DNA of 64,000 nucleotides from NCBI GenBank assembly GCA_041665845.1, contig JBAYIC010000004.1:939-64938 (forward strand), read 5' to 3'. Position 1 is the stretch's first letter. Each line of letters begins with the position of its first letter. The stretch comes from Patescibacteria group bacterium. GTDB taxonomy: Bacteria; Patescibacteriota; Patescibacteriia; Patescibacteriales; UBA12465. Positions 6,117 to 12,844 of the stretch are shown here, piece by piece. The notes beneath the pieces are model-generated. The model searched no databases. It saw only the letters and a list, made by a program, of their open reading frames with translations, and had not been told where the DNA came from. The translations under genes and the position numbers were made by a program.

Positions 6117-7700
6117 CTATTTGATATAGCTTTTGGCTACAATTTGCAAACAACGGAGCTCCTCAGAGAGTGTTTTGCTGTCTAAAATCGCCTTTTGATG
6201 TGCCGGCATCACCAAAAATCCAGGATCCAATAATTTTTGTAATTCCACGGCCTGAGCTTCGTTAAGACCAAGTTCAATAGTTTTCTTGGCTAATCCATCA
6301 GCAAACTGTGCTTGATTAGCATAAGCGCCATCAGGATTGACGGCGATGTCCTGAATGGCGCGATAAGCGTCGCCCGGAATCCGCATTCTTTTCAAAACTG
6401 TTTGCAAGGCACTACCTGACATTCCAGGGTATTCTTGCAAAAAGGAATTAATTTTTTCCTGACAAGGAGCATAAGACTTCATCTCCCTGGTAATCCTATC
6501 AAGCGCGATAAAAATCGGCATCACGTCGGTTCCTAATTCCCGGAATAAAAACGAGCGTCCCATGTTACCGGCATTCGGATAGTTCGGCAATTCTTCAGCC
6601 AAAAAAGTTAAAGCGTTGCGTGATTTTTTGAGCATTACTACCGCCCCCTCCATGGCCCAAGCGTTTGATTTATTCGGCATGATAAATGATCCTTTGGCGC
6701 CTTTCTTTTTTTGTTTAACAAAAAGTTGCGCCGGACAGCTAGCCATGCGAATGAAATCTTCGGTCAATTTGATAACCTGAGTCAAAATATTGGCCACGAT
6801 TAAAAATTTTCCGGCTTCAATGGCATAAGAAACACATTGGTCAGTCCATGGTTCATACGTCAATTTATAATCTTCAATGTACTTCTTGGCAAAATCATGC
6901 CAGTCAAGTTCAGGATAAGCAGCATAATGACAAGTTAAGTTGCCGATAGCGCCTCCCATTTTTGCCGAGAAATCAGTAAATAATAAATCTTCCAATAAGC
7001 CTTGAATTGCGCTTATTCGAATTACCGATTTTATTCGGTGAGTTGTTGGTTCGGCTGCTTGAAGATGAGTTAATTCTGGCAGGATAAGCGGTCCGCCATT
7101 TATTGCTTCCTGTAAATGACAATAATCAAACAAGAAAAAACAAAAGTCCGCTAACCGGTTAGACAAATGTCCCAGAATAAGTTCGTTGGCAATCAAGCCA
7201 AAAACGATACTCATCGTATCCTCAGACGTTTCCGCAAAACCAACCGCTTCAACATACCTGGCTAAATGCGGCATTTTATTGGCAATTTTTAATTTAATAA
7301 AGTCGCCTGCGGCCGCCGTATCATGCTCAGTAAAGGCCTCAATCTTTTCGGCCTGAAAAATCTCATCCAGAGAGACACCGATAGTTTCCATAATAAAATC
7401 TTTATCTTCAAGGCTCAGCTTCCCAATAATCTTTTCCTCATCAGGAATCGACTGTTGCGCCAAAAAATCGCTCAGAGCAATTAAATATTGCTTGATTACA
7501 TAAAAGCGCTTCAAGCCGATGGCTTTTCCAGAAGTTATATCATTCATAAATTCAACGCTTTTACCATAGCGTCCCAAGAGAGAGGTTGGAGATGATAGAG
7601 TTTCTACCGTTTTCGTGTCTGCTCTTAAAGCAAACAATTCTTCTAAACTAGGAAATCCCGGACCGTAGCCGGCAATCATTCCCTGAACGATTTCATTCAT
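6117..7700 (-). CDS. Adenylosuccinate lyase family protein (fumarate-lyase superfamily), PurB-like, extended
   Basis: GSFIMPNKSNAW (compare GSSxMPxKxN), LTHLQAAEPTT (compare TH.Q.AqPTT), FTEHDTAA (compare HDV.A). At 527 aa it is longer than typical PurB. Confidence 0.7.
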   Translation of the reverse strand: MNEIVQGMIAGYGPGFPSLEELFALRADTKTVETLSSPTSLLGRYGKSVEFMNDITSGKAIGLKRFYVIKQYLIALSDFLAQQSIPDEEKIIGKLSLEDKDFIMETIGVSLDEIFQAEKIEAFTEHDTAAAGDFIKLKIANKMPHLARYVEAVGFAETSEDTMSIVFGLIANELILGHLSNRLADFCFFLFDYCHLQEAINGGPLILPELTHLQAAEPTTHRIKSVIRISAIQGLLEDLLFTDFSAKMGGAIGNLTCHYAAYPELDWHDFAKKYIEDYKLTYEPWTDQCVSYAIEAGKFLIVANILTQVIKLTEDFIRMASCPAQLFVKQKKKGAKGSFIMPNKSNAWAMEGAVVMLKKSRNALTFLAEELPNYPNAGNMGRSFLFRELGTDVMPIFIALDRITREMKSYAPCQEKINSFLQEYPGMSGSALQTVLKRMRIPGDAYRAIQDIAVNPDGAYANQAQFADGLAKKTIELGLNEAQAVELQKLLDPGFLVMPAHQKAILDSKTLSEELRCLQIVAKSYIK

Positions 7701-7850: not shown

Positions 7851-8054
7851 TTAATCGAGCGATTTAAAATAATCACAATGACCCTCCGGAGAAATTTCGC
7901 CGTTTTTTTCTAATAGCTCTTCAAAAGTTTTATCATCTGAAGTAACACAAACACAAACATCCTCTTGATTATGAAAACTGCTGCAATTTTTACATTGGGT
8001 TACTTCATTCCCCCATTCGTTTACATATTCACTATCTAAACTTCTATCTGACAT
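7851..8054 (-). CDS. Small cysteine-rich protein, HiPIP-like Cys pattern (tentative)
   Basis: 67 aa with CKNCSSF...CVCV...GHCDYF, reminiscent of the CxNCxF...C...GxCxxF spacing of HiPIP. It has its own promoter and terminator. Confidence 0.45.
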   Translation of the reverse strand: MSDRSLDSEYVNEWGNEVTQCKNCSSFHNQEDVCVCVTSDDKTFEELLEKNGEISPEGHCDYFKSLD

Positions 8055-8128: not shown

Positions 8129-8158
8129 GAAAAAAAGCGCCGAATTTCTTCGACGCTT
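8129..8158 (-). terminator. Rho-independent terminator closing the paralog/fusion operon
   Basis: Minus strand AGCGTCGAA-GAAA-TTCGGCGCT followed by a T-run. Confidence 0.65.
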
Positions 8159-8181
8159 CACATATAAGTCTTTTTGACTTT

Positions 8182-9681
8182 TTATATTTCTTCCATTGCG
8201 GCTTTCAATTTGGCCCAATCTCCTTTAGGATCGGTGCTCAATTTGCCGGCGGTAATCAAATCAGCTACGGCCGGATCTTCCTGCTCATACTGATCAGAAG
8301 GCACAGAAATACCAGCGATAACTGGCAAGCCTTCCCACTCCTCAATATGATCTTTAGACCGATTGGCCACACAAGCAATTCCTACTGTAACAACTCCGAA
8401 GGCATTGAGGGCGTTAATTGCTTTTTGAGTAGTACCGAAATTATTGCACAAGTCCTCAAAAATAAGAGCGAACCAACCGACCTTAAGTGCTCCGGCATTC
8501 CGGCGCATGACCAAATTAAACTCTTCTTTGGCAGTTGCGGTTTTAATGGCTGTCACCTCTTTTTCCAAACGCAAGCCGGGGATACCCAGTAAACGCCCGA
8601 CTTCCTGAGCAATTTTAGTTCCGCCTTCGGGAGCGCCTATCAGGCAATCAACTTTATGGCCCCAGGCTTCTTCAAAGGTTCGGATTTTTTCGACCATCAA
8701 CTTGGCAAAGTAATTTAACCTTTGCGGATGGTCCTCTATCACGGCCAAATTAAAATAAACATCTCCGACATAATTCTTTTCACCAGTTGGTGAGGGATAC
8801 TTGCCACTATAAGCGACTAATGGCCCCAAAAACCTCCCTTCAGAATCCTGACGTGATTGATAATGAGCTTCAAAATTAATCAGTGTTTCTAAGGGCTGGC
8901 CCTTAATTAAACTTAAAGCGTCAGACTTTAATGCTTCCTTGATAGAAAGTCGGCGGCTTTCAGCGGCGCTGATTTTCCTTTCGGGGTTGCCTTTAAAAAG
9001 TTGGCCACCGAGAATTAAATTATCAGCCCCGGCGTCCAAAATATTCTTAACGCCATCAATGCGATCAGCCGATTGCTGACCAACTTCCATCCAATAATCA
9101 CGAACAGCCGGGATATACGTTTCAATGCAGTCCGGCAAAATCTGTTTCATAAACTTCAATTCTTTCGATCCACAAACTACAGAATCAAATAAATCATTGC
9201 CATACTCCAACAAATTCATAACATCATTAAGAATTGCCATTTCCGGAACGGCGCCACGGCGCATCCGACATTCATCGCGAGCAGTATCTGTTAACACTGA
9301 CACAATGGCAATCTTAACACCGGCAGGAATCAATTTTCGAACATCTCTTAAAGCGCGCAGAGAGGCTATACTGGAAACTGTCACAATATCACCGGGGCGC
9401 ATGAACGGAACATACTTCAACAAAATGTTTTTGTCAGTTCCATTTGTGTCCGGTAATTTTAAATCCCAAAAAATATACTTATCCGGATACAGACTGACAA
9501 TTTTTGCTAACACGCCATTCTCTCCTTTCATCCCTTCAAGATGTAGGGCATCATTAAACTTGAAATAGCTGATATAATCAACAATCTCGCTCGGTTCAGC
9601 AAAAGCTTCCGCAATACTGTCTAAAATTGCTTGGGCGCTTTCAACCCCGTCAAACCCCATCATAAATGGTTTTCTTTTCAT
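8182..9681 (-). CDS. Fusion protein: OMP-decarboxylase-like N-domain + type I phosphoribosyltransferase (OPRT-like) C-domain
   Basis: N-domain motifs: FWDLKLPDTNGT (DxKxxD), IVSVLTD, VVCGSKE, IPAVRD, GADNLILGGQLF. C-domain motifs: LIGAPEGGTKIA and PRPP loop ALIFEDLCNNFGTT. The track start at 9714 is TTG; the first ATG is at 9681. Confidence 0.65.
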   Translation of the reverse strand: MKRKPFMMGFDGVESAQAILDSIAEAFAEPSEIVDYISYFKFNDALHLEGMKGENGVLAKIVSLYPDKYIFWDLKLPDTNGTDKNILLKYVPFMRPGDIVTVSSIASLRALRDVRKLIPAGVKIAIVSVLTDTARDECRMRRGAVPEMAILNDVMNLLEYGNDLFDSVVCGSKELKFMKQILPDCIETYIPAVRDYWMEVGQQSADRIDGVKNILDAGADNLILGGQLFKGNPERKISAAESRRLSIKEALKSDALSLIKGQPLETLINFEAHYQSRQDSEGRFLGPLVAYSGKYPSPTGEKNYVGDVYFNLAVIEDHPQRLNYFAKLMVEKIRTFEEAWGHKVDCLIGAPEGGTKIAQEVGRLLGIPGLRLEKEVTAIKTATAKEEFNLVMRRNAGALKVGWFALIFEDLCNNFGTTQKAINALNAFGVVTVGIACVANRSKDHIEEWEGLPVIAGISVPSDQYEQEDPAVADLITAGKLSTDPKGDWAKLKAAMEEI

Positions 9682-9723
9682 TCTTTTTAATTTTTGGTTA
9701 TACAATAAATACAATTACTACAA

Positions 9724-10494
9724 TTACAATGCGACAAATTGCTCTTCCCGATCAAACAGAAAGGCTTTTATCTCGTCTCTTAAAAGAGTAACCGAGACAT
9801 TGCCCCAAAAAATATCATTCGGGAAAATTAATTTTTCACTTATTCGGTCAAAAACATTCTCCTTATCAGCCATAACTCTAAATAACTGGGTCGCTAAATT
9901 TTCTAATTCTTCTTTGCGTCCATCAATTAGGTTGCAGTTAGTAAAAATATGTTGCAGACATTTATTGAAATAAAATATTTTTTTATCAGCCTTAACGTCC
10001 TGCATTAAAAGAATCTTATTCAAAGTTTTAACATCAGAGTAATCGCCTATTTCAAGCTTAAGGTAGCAGGGGAAACAAACATTTCTACCCAGAACTTCAA
10101 CTTCAAGCACGACTTTGATACTATAGCTGATAACAATTTTCGCACTCCAATCTTTGGGAAAATAAATAATTTTATAGTAAAACTTTCCCCAAACTGGTTT
10201 CTGATATTTCTCCGGCGTAGTGCCATCGCGATAAATAATTACCACCTTGCCTGGATTAGACGAAAAACTGGTAACCTTTTTACTAATAACCCAAAGGTCA
10301 AGCGATAAAATTACAAGAATCAAACCAGCAATCCAAGTTGATGTTAGAGATTCCAGGGAAAGCCCCAGTATAGAAACCACTGCCAAGATATAGGCAATAG
10401 CACTTAAAAGAGCGGATACTACCAATACGTAAACCAGCTCACCAGCAGAAAACAAAATGATTTTTTTCATTTCATGATTTTTTTTATTATGCAT
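9724..10494 (-). CDS. Paralog 1 of 4: two-TM membrane protein of unknown function
   Basis: Two TM helices followed by a soluble domain with family motifs YQKPVWGK, YFPKDW, FYFNKCLQHIF, IFPNDIF. It overlaps paralog 2 by 8 nt. Confidence 0.7.
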   Translation of the reverse strand: MHNKKNHEMKKIILFSAGELVYVLVVSALLSAIAYILAVVSILGLSLESLTSTWIAGLILVILSLDLWVISKKVTSFSSNPGKVVIIYRDGTTPEKYQKPVWGKFYYKIIYFPKDWSAKIVISYSIKVVLEVEVLGRNVCFPCYLKLEIGDYSDVKTLNKILLMQDVKADKKIFYFNKCLQHIFTNCNLIDGRKEELENLATQLFRVMADKENVFDRISEKLIFPNDIFWGNVSVTLLRDEIKAFLFDREEQFVAL

Positions 10495-11251
10495 TTCTTA
10501 CTCCTAATGTTAACAACATTAACTTAGTTTTTGCTCCCAAAAACAAATCAGGAAAACTAGCCATCTCTTCAATTTCACTTAAAGCGTTAGCTCGCATTTT
10601 CATATTATTAGTAGTACAAATACTAGCCAACATTTTAAATCTAGTCTCTTTCTCTTCCGTCATGTTCGCGTGATAGAAAATATGTTCTAAACATTTTTTC
10701 AGAGAATATACGCTTTGATTAGTGCCTATATCTTGTCTGTCAATAATATATTTCCAATCTTTAGCATTTAATTGTCTATTGAATTTAAAGCTCAGGAGGA
10801 ACGGGAAAATTATCGTCGAACCTTCAACATCAACATAAAAGTCAATCTTCAAGATAAGACATTTATCAGTATCCCAGGGCCTTTCCCAATCCTGATCATC
10901 GGGAAGCTGAATTATCTGACAAAAGCATTTCCCCCAAAAAGGTTTCTGGTAAATAGACGGTTCATCCTCATCAATATTAGTTAAAATCACTTCTTTTTCA
11001 TTAAACTTGAAAACCGTAATCTTTGTCCTCACTATCACTAAATGAAGAATCACGAAAATCAAAATGTATAGAAGGAAAAAGCTCATGGCCTGATAAAAAC
11101 TATGTAAACCTTTTTCCGAAGGCCAATAAGGAGCAACAAAAAGAGCGAAATGCAAAGAAAATGCTATCAAGGCAATAAATACTCCAAAAGTAGCGGGTTT
11201 CTGAGCTGCCCTAACAAAATACTGTTTTAAGTATTCCTTAAATTGTTTCAT
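10487..11251 (-). CDS. Paralog 2 of 4: two-TM membrane protein of unknown function
   Basis: Motifs YLKQYFVRAAQKP, IYQKPFWGK, LPDDQDW, NAKDW, YSLKKCLEHIF, SFPDLF. It overlaps paralog 3 by 14 nt. Confidence 0.7.
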   Translation of the reverse strand: MKQFKEYLKQYFVRAAQKPATFGVFIALIAFSLHFALFVAPYWPSEKGLHSFYQAMSFFLLYILIFVILHLVIVRTKITVFKFNEKEVILTNIDEDEPSIYQKPFWGKCFCQIIQLPDDQDWERPWDTDKCLILKIDFYVDVEGSTIIFPFLLSFKFNRQLNAKDWKYIIDRQDIGTNQSVYSLKKCLEHIFYHANMTEEKETRFKMLASICTTNNMKMRANALSEIEEMASFPDLFLGAKTKLMLLTLGVRNA

Positions 11252-12065
11252 CTTCCAGATTTTTTACAGGTTTAAGTGGTTTTTCTAATAATTCATCATC
11301 AACAGAAATATTGTTAGATAATCTAATGTTCATAACAGTAAGAGTAGAAAAAAGGTCTCCAAACAAGAACCCCAATTTTACTAATTCTTGTTCTAATTTC
11401 TTTACCGTAATTTTTTCCTCTTTCCATTTGAGAAGTTGTTCTTTTACAACCGCTTCATTTTCCATCAAACTCGCAGTTACTATATTCTCTAAACATTTTT
11501 GGAAACTAAAAACTGTGCAATTTTTTCTATCAGCACCTTGTCTGTTAATCATTTCTTCAAGTTCTTTCGCTTGAAAATCCTTATAGAGATAGAGATCAAG
11601 ATAAAAGGCTAGGTAAGCCCAGTACTGGCCAATAACGTCATAGGGCAGAATTTCCAAACTTAGTTTCTTGTTCCTTAGGTCTAAATCATCGCTACTTAAA
11701 TCCCAATTTTCTGGAAAAACTATTTCAATAGCGATGGGTTCACCCCAAACTGGAAATTTATAAATCTCCGTCTCTTTTTTATCATCATAGCGCAAAAGGA
11801 TTATTTTGTTTTTCCGTTGCGGAAAAACGGTAATCCGAATATCTTTAACTGCTAGATGTAAAAACCAAAAGAAACAGACGCAGAGGAACAGAAATCCTAA
11901 AGTAATCTCCAGTGGAATTTCTAAGCACTTTTTTGAATCAACAAGCATGGCCGAGCCAAATACAATTAAAAACACAATCGTAGCGGCGTATAGAGCCCAG
12001 ACAAACGGGCTACCGGCCGCATACAAGAAATACTCTTTGATTAACCCCTTGATTAACTTTTTCAT
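11238..12065 (-). CDS. Paralog 3 of 4: two-TM membrane protein of unknown function
   Basis: Motifs LIKEYFLYAAGSP, IYKFPVWGE, FPENWDL, FQAKELEE, FSFQKCLENIV. ATGA overlap with paralog 4. Confidence 0.7.
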   Translation of the reverse strand: MKKLIKGLIKEYFLYAAGSPFVWALYAATIVFLIVFGSAMLVDSKKCLEIPLEITLGFLFLCVCFFWFLHLAVKDIRITVFPQRKNKIILLRYDDKKETEIYKFPVWGEPIAIEIVFPENWDLSSDDLDLRNKKLSLEILPYDVIGQYWAYLAFYLDLYLYKDFQAKELEEMINRQGADRKNCTVFSFQKCLENIVTASLMENEAVVKEQLLKWKEEKITVKKLEQELVKLGFLFGDLFSTLTVMNIRLSNNISVDDELLEKPLKPVKNLEDETI

Positions 12066-12844
12066 TTTTCTTCTTTTTTTGGATTGGTGTGTGAAAACTC
12101 CAGAGGCAAAAGCCTCATTTCAATAACTTCAATATTTGCAAAGAAGTTTTTAGGAAAAAGACTTAATGGCTCGAGCTCTTTGGTTAATTCCCAAGAAGTC
12201 ATTAGGTGCGCTTGGCATTTAAATAGATGAGGAATAATTTTCTCAATATTCTTAGCACAACGATTCGTAATAAGATTTTGCAAACAAGTTTGAAAATGAA
12301 AAACATGGTTATGCCTATCAATTTCTTTTTGTTCCTTAATTAAATCTTCTAAATCTTTGGCCTGAAAACTACCGCTAAAATTTAGCAAAAATACAAATGT
12401 TAGGTTCGCTAAATTTTTCTCATCAAGTGATATGGCTACTTCTAATCTGATTTCCCTCGCTATAGAGTCCTTATTTAAATCCCAAAATACCGGGAAATAA
12501 ATTCTAACATAAGGTACTTTGCCCCAAATTGGGTTTCTATAAATACGTGAAGAAGAATTCTTCGGCCTCAGCAGGACAATCATTCTTTCGTTAGAAAAGA
12601 AGTTAGTCATAAACCTCAAAGGAATAGCCAAGTTCAACAATAAAAAAGCAACCAAAATAGCCAAAAAACAAATATAAATATCCTGTTTAACGGCGTTGTA
12701 GACATCATTGTTTATTGCAACAATTTTAGCGGCTACAAGAGCTGGAATGAGAAAAACTAAAGCCACAACAAAAGCGGCTTTAAACGGACGATTAGCTGCC
12801 CATAAGAAATAACTTTGGATAAACTTTTCGATAATTTGTTTCAT
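12062..12844 (-). CDS. Paralog 4 of 4: two-TM membrane protein of unknown function (first gene of operon)
   Basis: Motifs FIQSYFLWAANRP, IYRNPIWGK, FPVFWDL, FQAKDLEDL, FHFQTCLQNLI, LFPKNFF. The TGA stop lies inside the ATGA overlap. Confidence 0.7.
   Translation of the reverse strand: MKQIIEKFIQSYFLWAANRPFKAAFVVALVFLIPALVAAKIVAINNDVYNAVKQDIYICFLAILVAFLLLNLAIPLRFMTNFFSNERMIVLLRPKNSSSRIYRNPIWGKVPYVRIYFPVFWDLNKDSIAREIRLEVAISLDEKNLANLTFVFLLNFSGSFQAKDLEDLIKEQKEIDRHNHVFHFQTCLQNLITNRCAKNIEKIIPHLFKCQAHLMTSWELTKELEPLSLFPKNFFANIEVIEMRLLPLEFSHTNPKKEEK

What the first reader, a model, noticed from the sequence alone, without database searches (positions are those of the whole stretch)
8182..9714. Reverse-order UMP-synthase-like fusion (OMP-decarboxylase-like + PRTase) as terminal gene of the membrane-paralog operon
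Seen in sequence: the N-terminal half has the OMP-decarboxylase motif series.
- FWDLKLPDTNGT, containing the DxKxxD catalytic triad pattern.
- IVSVLTD, VVCGSKE and IPAVRD.
- GADNLILGGQLF, where the usual phosphate-binding GR is GG.

The C-terminal half has a type I PRTase core (LIGAPEGGTKIAQEVGRLLGIP and the PRPP loop ALIFEDLCNNFGTT) that resembles OPRT.

Established knowledge: eukaryotic UMP synthase is OPRT followed by OMPDC. The opposite order is known from kinetoplastids, and most bacteria encode the two enzymes separately. No other pyr gene is in this window.

Inference: either a compact orotate-to-UMP salvage module or an enzyme pair acting on a non-canonical base. The altered phosphate-gripper residue and the operon link to four membrane proteins argue for looking closer.
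Basis: partly seen in the sequence, partly recalled or inferred. Interest (0 to 1): 0.55.

Follow-up and report, generated by a model that had tools for sequence, protein, structure and literature searches.

The report
Divergent fused PyrF-PyrE UMP synthase
This gene of a tiny-genome (Patescibacteria) bacterium is a real fusion of the last two enzymes of UMP synthesis, built from very divergent versions of both. The function is probably ordinary, but the genome shows no way to make the two substrates, orotate and PRPP.

Summary
Window 8182-9714(-) is one intact ORF with every quoted motif. Homologue N-termini put the likely start at the ATG at 9681 (499 aa).

Both halves are real but very divergent. 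The N-half folds as an OMP decarboxylase (OMPDC) and keeps its catalytic residues. The C-half belongs to a distinct phosphoribosyltransferase (PRTase) clade marked by the loop ED[VL][CIM]NNFxT.

That clade always sits just after a genuine PyrF of one of three subtypes. It is the only PyrE-like gene in 6/6 Patescibacteria genomes and 6/6 free-living proteobacterial genomes that carry it. I therefore read it as an uncatalogued orotate PRTase (OPRT) type and the gene as a PyrF-PyrE UMP synthase (about 0.8).

Three things are not routine:
- The phosphate-gripper arginine (E. coli R222, yeast R235) is replaced throughout this OMPDC subfamily.
- The genome shows no PyrB, PyrD, uracil PRTase, uridine kinase or PRPP synthase. 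The gene would be the only recognisable route to UMP, fed by imported orotate and an unknown PRPP source.
- It is under strong purifying selection (dN/dS 0.05-0.12).

Co-transcription with the four membrane paralogues is plausible, but the linkage is not conserved beyond close relatives.

This scan has noted the same kind of fusion in several other Patescibacteria genomes. I rate it a new variant of a known kind, of modest interest.

The parts
8182..9681 (-). PyrF-PyrE fusion gene (499 aa plus stop). The longest ORF reaches a TTG at 9714; a gene caller on record used the ATG at 9663 (493 aa, P0002).
   Evidence: ORF list and translation. Homologue N-termini begin MKRKPF. Start region read. dN/dS against four orthologues is 0.05-0.12.
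8914..9663 (-). OMP-decarboxylase-like TIM-barrel domain. Residues kept (493-aa numbering): Asp5, Lys35, Asp67-x-Lys69-x-x-Asp72, Thr125, Pro185, Arg188. The gripper Arg is Gly220.
   Evidence: NF001273 E=4.7e-8. Profile against solved OMPDCs E=4.8e-14, with residue alignment to E. coli 1eix. Foldseek 1dbt TM 0.81. Invariant columns.
9448..9465 (-). DLKLPD, the catalytic D-x-K-x-x-D motif.
   Evidence: Aligns with E. coli D71/K73/D76. Invariant in 26 homologues. Coordinates.
8983..9012 (-). LGGQLFKGNP. This is the position of the canonical 'GR' phosphate-gripper arginine, here Gly, followed by an invariant Gln and the KGNP motif.
   Evidence: Alignments to 1eix and 3ldv. All members of the PGIRDxWM subfamily have G[AGS]Q, while partners of canonical type keep GR.
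8185..8901 (-). Type I phosphoribosyltransferase domain of a distinct OPRT-like clade.
   Evidence: TIGR01367 E=7.6e-9. Clade profile against OPRT 4paw E=3e-12. The clade is monophyletic with SH-aLRT 99. Genomic evidence that it stands in for PyrE.
8428..8460 (-). FEDLCNNFGTT, the PRPP-binding loop and hallmark of the clade (ED[VL][CIM]NNFxT).
   Evidence: This pattern retrieved 111 related places in genome contigs. Coordinates.
8134..8159 (-). Terminator-like hairpin (11 pairs followed by a T-run), 23 nt after the stop codon.
9724..12844 (-). Four paralogous membrane-protein genes directly upstream. They are probably co-transcribed with the fusion gene; no functional link is shown.
   Evidence: ORFs. 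No Pfam match. The 42-nt gap has no terminator. Adjacency is variable in relatives.
6117..7700 (-). Divergent, oversized PurB-like adenylosuccinate lyase. It is a separate transcription unit downstream and a neighbour in nucleotide metabolism.
   Evidence: NF006764 144 bits against a cut-off of 446. A more canonical PurB-like lyase (PF00206, PF08328) lies next to the fusion in L008, L012, L017, L040 and L043.

Best explanation
The gene encodes a bifunctional UMP synthase in the order OMP decarboxylase then orotate phosphoribosyltransferase. The C-terminal domain condenses orotate with PRPP to give OMP, and the N-terminal TIM-barrel domain decarboxylates OMP to UMP.

The genome has no recognisable PyrB, PyrD, uracil PRTase or uridine kinase. 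The enzyme therefore works as an orotate-salvage module and would be the only recognisable route to UMP. CTP synthase is present to continue from there.

Shown here: the fold, the conserved catalytic residues, the family relationships, the genomic stand-in for PyrE, and purifying selection.

Inferred: the substrates, that orotate and PRPP come from outside or from unrecognised enzymes, and that the lost gripper arginine is compensated.
For: Fold and sequence
- AlphaFold2 model: pLDDT 91, pTM 0.83.
- Foldseek best matches: Leishmania UMP synthase 3qw4, B. subtilis OMPDC 1dbt (TM 0.81) and OPRT 4paw.
- Profile hits to solved OMPDCs at 4.8e-14 and to OPRT at 4e-9 to 3e-12, ahead of adenine PRTases.
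- 25 of 26 homologues hit PF00215.

Catalytic residues
- Lys35, Asp67, Lys69, Asp72 and Arg188 of PGIR are invariant; Asp5 is nearly so.

Genomic context of the PRTase clade
- It always follows a genuine PyrF. Examples are PF00215 hits of 74-152 bits in G114, G194, G185 and G044, and PyrF_sub2 at 236 bits in a Lichenihabitans locus.
- It is fused independently to an equivalog-level PyrF (P0058) and to a type-2 PyrF (P0055).
- PyrD lies adjacent in at least 10 loci and an ATCase in 6.
- In 6/6 Patescibacteria and 6/6 proteobacterial genomes (4-6 Mb) that carry the clade, no PRTase scores over either curated PyrE cut-off. Apart from an unidentified open frame of 186 aa or more in each proteobacterial genome (30-44 bits), the best matches are the clade PRTase itself.

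Selection
- dN/dS is 0.05-0.12. It is 0.067 between two genomes that both lack PyrD.

Own genome
- No PyrB, PyrD, upp or udk. PyrG is present.
Against: - The protein is below every curated threshold: PF00156 21 bits against 26.3, no PF00215 hit, NF001273 33 against 193, TIGR01367 35 against 150.
- The phosphate-gripper arginine is missing. The R235A change costs 19,000-fold in kcat/Km in the yeast enzyme (PMC12874384).
- No route to orotate and no PRPP synthase is detectable in this genome or in its closest relatives, including one complete chromosome.
- No biochemical data exist for any member of the family.
Confidence: 0.8

Rival explanations
1. The pair has changed substrate. Either the PRTase loads a base other than orotate (uracil or a modified pyrimidine carboxylate), or it uses another ribosyl donor. 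The altered decarboxylase domain, which lacks the gripper arginine, would then act on that product or be non-catalytic.
For: - The gripper Arg is lost in the whole subfamily.
- No PyrB, PyrD or PRPP synthase is found in this genome or its close relatives.
- No upp is found, so a uracil-accepting PRTase would fill a gap.
- HMM scores are far below the cut-offs.
Against: - The catalytic decarboxylase residues are invariant, which only makes sense for a 6-carboxylated nucleotide.
- The same PRTase clade partners fully canonical PyrF enzymes and replaces PyrE in genomes that have PyrD and ATCase.
- 26 of 79 PyrF-positive Patescibacteria in the sample lack PyrD and PyrB, and 8 of them have clear PyrE-model hits. 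A stand-alone last-two-steps module is therefore common in the phylum.
Confidence: 0.12
2. The gene is a decaying relic of a lost de novo pyrimidine pathway and has no present function.
For: - The upstream pathway is absent.
- This copy is the most divergent of 26 homologues, and the only one without a PF00215 hit.
- A relative (L010) keeps only a 119-aa PyrD-like fragment.
Against: - The ORF is intact.
- dN/dS is 0.05-0.12 against four orthologues.
- All catalytic and PRPP-loop residues are kept.
- The gene has its own terminator and operon position.
- The structure prediction is confident.
Confidence: 0.03
3. The N-domain is a HUMPS-type enzyme (hexulose-6-phosphate synthase or 3-keto-L-gulonate-6-phosphate decarboxylase) rather than an OMP decarboxylase.
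For: - PF00215 covers both groups.
- NCBI names a homologue 'OMP decarboxylase / HUMPS family protein'.
Against: - All solved-structure hits of the N-half are OMP decarboxylases; none is HPS or KGPDC.
- The second-strand residue is Lys35, as in OMPDC (from my own knowledge, the metal-dependent relatives have Glu there).
- The PGIR motif and the Gln loop follow the E. coli OMPDC pattern.
Confidence: 0.02

Closest known systems
Kinetoplastid UMP synthase (OMPDC-OPRT; Leishmania donovani, PDB 3qw4)
   Same: Same domain order and same two folds. It is the top Foldseek match over both domains. The same reverse order is also reported for oomycetes, diatoms and some cyanobacteria (PMC2705460).
   Different: Only 13-14% identity. 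The family profile reaches only its PRTase half, at E 3e-4 to 6e-6, so this is an independent fusion. Here the gripper arginine is Gly.
Bacterial bifunctional PyrF/PyrE, NCBIfam NF004034 (PRK05500)
   Same: A bacterial single polypeptide with the decarboxylase first and the OPRT second.
   Different: The window protein gives no hit to this model at E<=1. NF004034 is built on a type-2 PyrF and touches only the type-2 partners of this PRTase clade, far below its cut-off.
Type-1 OMP decarboxylase (E. coli 1eix, B. subtilis 1dbt; TIGR01740, NF001273)
   Same: TIM barrel (TM 0.81). Shares D-x-K-x-x-D, the second-strand Lys, the PGIR arginine and the Gln loop.
   Different: The GR arginine is replaced by G, A or S followed by an invariant Gln and KGNP. 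PGIR is extended to PGIRDxWM. The score is 33 bits against a cut-off of 193.
Thermus/Helicobacter-type OPRT (TIGR01367; H. pylori HP1257, PDB 4paw)
   Same: It is the best sequence and structure match of the C-domain. It shares the ED acidic pair of the PRPP loop and the NR motif after the last strand. It is the sister group in the tree.
   Different: The clade is separated by a long stem (2.3 changes per site, SH-aLRT 99). The PRPP loop reads CNNFSTT and has no glycine. The domain is about 40 residues longer at its N-terminal, hairpin-rich end. Scores are 30-68 bits against a cut-off of 150.

Membership tests
OMP decarboxylase (PyrF; PF00215, TIGR01740, NF001273) | (beta/alpha)8 barrel superimposable on solved OMPDCs | tested here: met
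   AF2 pLDDT 91. Foldseek 1dbt TM 0.81, 8cso 0.79, 1eix 0.75-0.77.
OMP decarboxylase (PyrF; PF00215, TIGR01740, NF001273) | Catalytic Lys on strand 2 plus Asp-x-Lys-x-x-Asp (E. coli K44, D71, K73, D76) | tested here: met
   K35, D67, K69 and D72 are invariant in 26 homologues. D71, K73 and D76 align residue by residue in the 1eix alignment. The K35-K44 equivalence rests on position and my recall of the numbering.
OMP decarboxylase (PyrF; PF00215, TIGR01740, NF001273) | Phosphodianion gripper arginine after strand 8 (E. coli R222, yeast R235) | tested here: not met
   Gly220 in this protein; A, G or S in all relatives of the PGIRDxWM type. The PGIR arginine (R188) and a Gln in the gripper loop are kept.
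OMP decarboxylase (PyrF; PF00215, TIGR01740, NF001273) | Score over the curated model cut-off | tested here: not met
   No PF00215 hit. NF001273 32.7 against 193; TIGR01740 21.3 against 92.3. 25 of 26 homologues do hit PF00215 at E<=1e-3.
OMP decarboxylase (PyrF; PF00215, TIGR01740, NF001273) | Decarboxylates OMP to UMP | not testable with these tools
   Needs an enzyme assay or complementation.
Orotate phosphoribosyltransferase (PyrE; TIGR00336, TIGR01367) | Type I PRTase fold with an acidic-pair PRPP loop | tested here: met
   PF00156 at E=2e-4, over residues 326-456 of the 510-residue ORF translation. The ED of FEDLCNNFGTT aligns with the ED/DD of solved OPRTs. Foldseek 4paw TM 0.65-0.71.
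Orotate phosphoribosyltransferase (PyrE; TIGR00336, TIGR01367) | Score over the curated model cut-off | tested here: not met
   TIGR01367 35.4 against 150.25; TIGR00336 gives no hit for this protein. Other clade members score 30-68 bits.
Orotate phosphoribosyltransferase (PyrE; TIGR00336, TIGR01367) | Occupies the PyrE role: encoded with pyrF, and no other PyrE in the genome | tested here: met
   The gene lies directly after PyrF in the unfused loci. No hit over either PyrE cut-off in 6/6 Patescibacteria and 6/6 proteobacterial carriers. PyrD or ATCase lies adjacent in many loci.
Orotate phosphoribosyltransferase (PyrE; TIGR00336, TIGR01367) | Orotate-binding residues and the flexible-loop lysine of solved OPRTs | tested here: inconclusive
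   An AEKK/LEKE loop (E367 and K368 nearly invariant) and an NRS motif (R435 invariant) align with the FTER and NRG of 4paw. The N-terminal hood region is not alignable by sequence.
Bifunctional PyrF/PyrE NF004034 (cyanobacterial type) | Match to the curated bifunctional model | tested here: not met
   No hit at E<=1.
HUMPS enzymes (hexulose-6-phosphate synthase, KGPDC) | Closest solved relatives are HPS or KGPDC, with metal-binding Glu on strand 2 | tested here: not met
   All N-domain hits are OMPDCs. The residue is Lys35.

The most novel reading that the evidence does not exclude
In this Falkowbacteria-like clade the fused enzyme may not be a plain copy of UMP synthase. It may be the cell's single entry point into pyrimidine nucleotides.

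Its decarboxylase would grip the nucleotide phosphate in a new way, without the 'essential' arginine. Its transferase would depend on host-derived orotate, and on PRPP or another ribosyl donor, because the genome has no PRPP synthase.

If so, it would be a natural experiment on OMPDC's phosphodianion activation. It would also mark an unrecognised metabolite dependency of these episymbionts.
Probability: 0.15. Interest if true: 0.6.

Novelty: new variant of a known kind. Interest (0 to 1): 0.3.

Why it matters
Three practical points follow.
- **Annotation.** An OPRT clade that every curated model misses will be left out of automated pathway reconstructions. Patescibacteria and some Rhizobiales would then be scored as lacking PyrE, which distorts auxotrophy calls for these organisms.
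- **Enzymology.** OMP decarboxylase is the textbook case of catalysis driven by phosphate binding. Here a whole natural subfamily lacks the arginine worth 5.6 kcal/mol in the yeast enzyme (PMC12874384). It is a ready-made test of how that energy can be supplied otherwise.
- **Physiology.** A conserved last-two-steps module sits in genomes with no route to orotate or PRPP. This points to specific metabolites that these ultra-small bacteria must take from hosts.

None of this changes the basic reading that the function is ordinary.

Tried and rejected
- **Paralogue in the same genome.** None was found by blastp or phmmer against all ORFs.
- **Three-enzyme pathway with the PurB-like neighbour.** Rejected. 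The lyase is a separate unit behind a terminator. It is the likely PurB of a scattered purine set noted elsewhere in the genome. Relatives carry a more canonical PurB-like lyase, in convergent orientation, at that position.
- **Functional link to the four membrane paralogues (for example orotate uptake).** Adjacency varies among close relatives and is absent in distant ones. An earlier follow-up read these proteins as SPFH-like scaffolds rather than transporters.
- **A hidden, divergent PyrD or ATCase in this genome.** tblastn with the PyrD-like and ATCase neighbours of relatives found nothing at E<=0.01.
- **Second specialised pathway in Proteobacteria.** Rejected, because those genomes have no hit over either PyrE cut-off.
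- **Literature on Patescibacteria pyrimidine or orotate metabolism.** The searches gave nothing specific.
- **Word-index protein search with the C-domain alone.** It returned only 8 hits and no useful names.
Full report
**1. Observation**

Window 8182-9714 (minus strand) is one uninterrupted ORF of 510 codons counted from a TTG.

Close homologues all begin MKRKPF[IV][LM]G[FL]DG. The same peptide starts at the ATG at 9681, so the real product is most likely 499 aa. A gene caller on record used the next ATG, giving 493 aa (P0002). Residue numbers below follow that 493-aa form.

A terminator-like hairpin lies 23 nt after the stop (8134-8159, minus strand). Only 42 nt with no terminator-like site separate the gene from the last of four upstream paralogues. 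'Terminal gene of the operon' is therefore structurally reasonable.

**2. The organism**

The window lies on contig 4 of a 1.04-Mb genome in 18 contigs, rated 97% complete. The nearest homologues come from Candidatus Falkowbacteria and other Patescibacteria.

**3. The two halves**

For this protein alone, Pfam gives only a sub-threshold PF00156 hit and no PF00215 hit. NCBIfam gives weak hits to both halves, far below the cut-offs:

| Model | E-value or bits | Cut-off |
|---|---|---|
| PyrF NF001273 | E=4.7e-8, 32.7 bits | 193 |
| pyrE_Therm TIGR01367 | E=7.6e-9, 35.4 bits | 150.25 |

The family as a whole is clear:
- 25 of 26 fused homologues hit PF00215 and 20 hit PF00156.
- Their profile finds solved OMP decarboxylases at E=4.8e-14 and an OPRT (H. 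pylori 4paw) at 4e-9.
- A profile of the PRTase domain alone, with stand-alone relatives added, finds OPRTs first (3e-12 and 2.5e-8) and adenine PRTases only after that.
- The AlphaFold2 model is confident, with pLDDT 91 and pTM 0.83.
- Its best Foldseek matches are Leishmania UMP synthase (same domain order), B. subtilis OMPDC (TM 0.81) and OPRTs.

**4. Active sites**

In the decarboxylase half, Lys35, Asp67, Lys69, Asp72, Thr125, Pro185 and Arg188 are invariant, and Asp5 nearly so. The alignment to E. coli OMPDC places D67, K69 and D72 on D71, K73 and D76. It also places the PGIR and Gln-loop motifs in register.

The one departure is the arginine of the canonical 'GR' after strand 8 (E. coli R222, yeast R235).
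- It is Gly here and Ala, Gly or Ser in every relative of this type. An invariant Gln and a KGNP motif always follow it.
- The same derived pattern (PGIRDxWM ... G[AGS]Q..KGNP) also occurs in stand-alone proteins of 250-275 aa. It therefore marks an OMPDC subfamily, not the fusion as such.
- Partners of canonical type keep GR, and so does an independent fusion, P0058.
- In yeast OMPDC the R235A change lowers kcat/Km 19,000-fold, or 5.6 kcal/mol (PMC12874384). Some compensation is therefore expected, but I could not inspect the model coordinates.

In the transferase half, the PRPP loop reads ED-[VL]-C-N-N-F-S/G-T-T. There is an E-K-K loop where OPRTs carry their flexible catalytic loop, and an invariant N-R-S where 4paw has N-R-G.

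**5. What the PRTase clade does elsewhere**

This is the decisive evidence.

*Size and spread of the family.* An exhaustive search found 441 clusters (50% identity) at E<=1e-3. They are fused forms of 480-536 aa and many stand-alone halves. The hallmark loop retrieved 111 places in species-representative genomes, of which 80 were kept as loci.

*Gene order.* In the unfused loci the order is always decarboxylase gene, then PRTase gene. The decarboxylase partner is a genuine PyrF of one of three kinds:
- Type 1, with GR kept and PF00215 scores of 74-152 bits.
- Type 2, with TIGR02127 at 236 bits in a Lichenihabitans locus.
- The derived subfamily seen here.

*Independent fusions.* Two other fusions exist. 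One joins an equivalog-level PyrF (P0058, NF001273 198.9 against a cut-off of 193). The other joins a type-2 PyrF (P0055).

*Neighbours.* A dihydroorotate dehydrogenase gene is adjacent in at least ten loci. An aspartate carbamoyltransferase gene is adjacent in six proteobacterial loci.

*No PyrE over the cut-offs in carriers.*
- In a 201-genome sample of the phylum, six genomes besides this one carry the clade. In these carriers no PRTase scores over the TIGR00336 or TIGR01367 cut-off. Where TIGR01367 matches at all, its best match is the clade PRTase itself at about 39 bits; G185, G086 and G044 have no match.
- The same holds for six free-living proteobacterial genomes of 4.3-5.9 Mb, which need an OPRT. 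Their only other weak hits are unidentified open frames of 186 aa or more (30-44 bits).

*Phylogeny.* In a tree the clade is one strongly supported group (SH-aLRT 99, stem 2.3 changes per site). It is sister to the Thermus/Helicobacter-type PyrE, and the proteobacterial sequences nest inside it.

I conclude that the clade is a third, uncatalogued sequence type of orotate phosphoribosyltransferase. The window gene is therefore a PyrF-PyrE UMP synthase.

**6. The pathway around it in this genome**

| Function (model) | Result |
|---|---|
| PyrD (PF01180) | not found |
| PyrB / OTCase (PF02729) | not found |
| Uracil PRTase (PF14681) | not found |
| Uridine kinase (PF00485) | not found |
| Bacterial UMP kinase (TIGR02075) | not found |
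| PRPP synthase (PF13793, TIGR01251) | not found |
| CTP synthase (PF06418) | present, 367 bits |

tblastn with the PyrD-like and ATCase neighbours of relatives also found nothing. A PurF-like amidophosphoribosyltransferase gene is present. Earlier notes of this scan list most other purine genes (I did not verify these).

Among the five closest fusion-bearing relatives (L007, L008, L009, L010 and L013):
- None has PyrB, three have a divergent PyrD and two have none.
- Four of the five (L007, L009, L010 and L013) lack PRPP synthase; L008 has it.
- L010, a complete 977-kb chromosome, lacks PyrB, PyrD and PRPP synthase.

The gene is nevertheless under strong purifying selection, with dN/dS 0.05-0.12. 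Between the two PyrD-less relatives the value is 0.067 at dS 0.64. For the more distant pairs dS is near saturation.

A 'last two steps only' arrangement is common in the phylum. Of 79 PyrF-positive genomes in the sample, 26 lack both PyrD and PyrB, and 18 have PyrD without PyrB. These tallies include one unpublished genome (G154), but no specific claim rests on it.

The most economical reading is orotate salvage from a host or the environment. The source of PRPP is unexplained.

**7. Surroundings**

- *The four upstream paralogues.* They have no Pfam family. An earlier follow-up of this scan read them as SPFH-like membrane scaffolds (not tested here). Their adjacency to the fusion varies among close relatives (three copies upstream in L008, one in L010, downstream in L007) and is absent in distant ones. 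I see synteny by descent, not a functional link.
- *The PurB-like lyase downstream.* The 527-aa lyase (6117-7700) is a separate unit. Relatives have a more canonical PurB-like lyase there.
- *Base composition.* The fusion gene and the lyase are GC-richer (43.5% and 41.5%) than the window (34.4%). This agrees with earlier notes that Patescibacteria pyrF/pyrE cassettes tend to be GC-rich.

**8. Comparison with what is known**

The OMPDC-OPRT order is known in kinetoplastids, oomycetes, diatoms and some cyanobacteria (PMC2705460). NCBIfam has a bacterial bifunctional model, NF004034, which this protein does not hit. Databases already label some homologues loosely as OMP decarboxylase/PRTase. This scan has described such Patescibacteria fusions in several other genomes.

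The following are not in the curated models or in the papers I could search:
- the OPRT clade as such;
- the arginine-less OMPDC subfamily;
- the combination with missing orotate and PRPP supply.

**9. Verdict**

I rate this a new variant of a known kind, with ordinary function and modest interest (0.3).

Rival readings and my estimates:
- changed substrate or donor: 0.12
- relic gene: 0.03
- HUMPS-type enzyme: 0.02

Noticed in passing
whole genome G000; relatives L007, L009, L010, L013: No recognisable PRPP synthase (PF13793, TIGR01251) in this 97%-complete genome or in four close relatives, one of them a complete 977-kb chromosome. Yet they encode two PRPP-using enzymes: PurF and the PyrF-PyrE fusion. 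Three more distant fusion-bearing genomes do have Prs.
   Followed up: partly
loci L051, L057, L058, L060, L068, L070, L072, L073, L075, L076, L082, L084: Free-living Rhizobiales (Lichenihabitans, Lichenibacterium) and other Proteobacteria carry the same PRTase clade after a type-2 PyrF, with PyrD and ATCase nearby. The six genomes searched have no hit over either curated PyrE cut-off. In the tree of four of these loci they nest inside the mostly Patescibacteria clade, which suggests transfer between phyla.
   Followed up: partly
window 6117-7700 (-): Oversized (527 aa), divergent PurB-like adenylosuccinate lyase (144 bits against a cut-off of 446). It is GC-richer than its surroundings (41.5% against 34.4%). 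Relatives have a more canonical PurB-like lyase (PF00206, PF08328) at this position.
   Followed up: partly
window 8182-9681 and 6117-7700: The two nucleotide-metabolism genes have GC3 of about 40%. Neighbouring genes have 25-33%.
   Followed up: no
window 7851-8054 (-): Small Cys-rich ORF (about 67 aa) between the fusion's terminator and the lyase, preceded by a TTGCAC...TATAAT promoter-like site.
   Followed up: no
L010:6787-7146 (+): The complete Falkowbacteria chromosome keeps only a 119-aa ORF that clusters with the PyrD-like neighbours of relatives. PF01180 finds no PyrD in that genome. This may be a remnant of a lost pyrD.
   Followed up: partly
whole genome G000: No bacterial-type UMP kinase (PyrH, TIGR02075) was found at E<=1. 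UMP phosphorylation would have to rely on another NMP kinase.
   Followed up: no
proteins P0055, P0058, P0081: Further independent PyrF-PyrE fusions exist in metagenomes: type-2 PyrF plus this PRTase clade (573 aa); equivalog-level type-1 PyrF plus this clade (532 aa); and a 523-aa form whose PRTase groups with Thermus-type PyrE.
   Followed up: partly
201-genome sample of the phylum: 26 of 79 PyrF-positive Patescibacteria genomes have neither PyrD nor PyrB/OTCase, and 18 have PyrD without PyrB. Truncated pyrimidine pathways are widespread in the phylum.
   Followed up: partly
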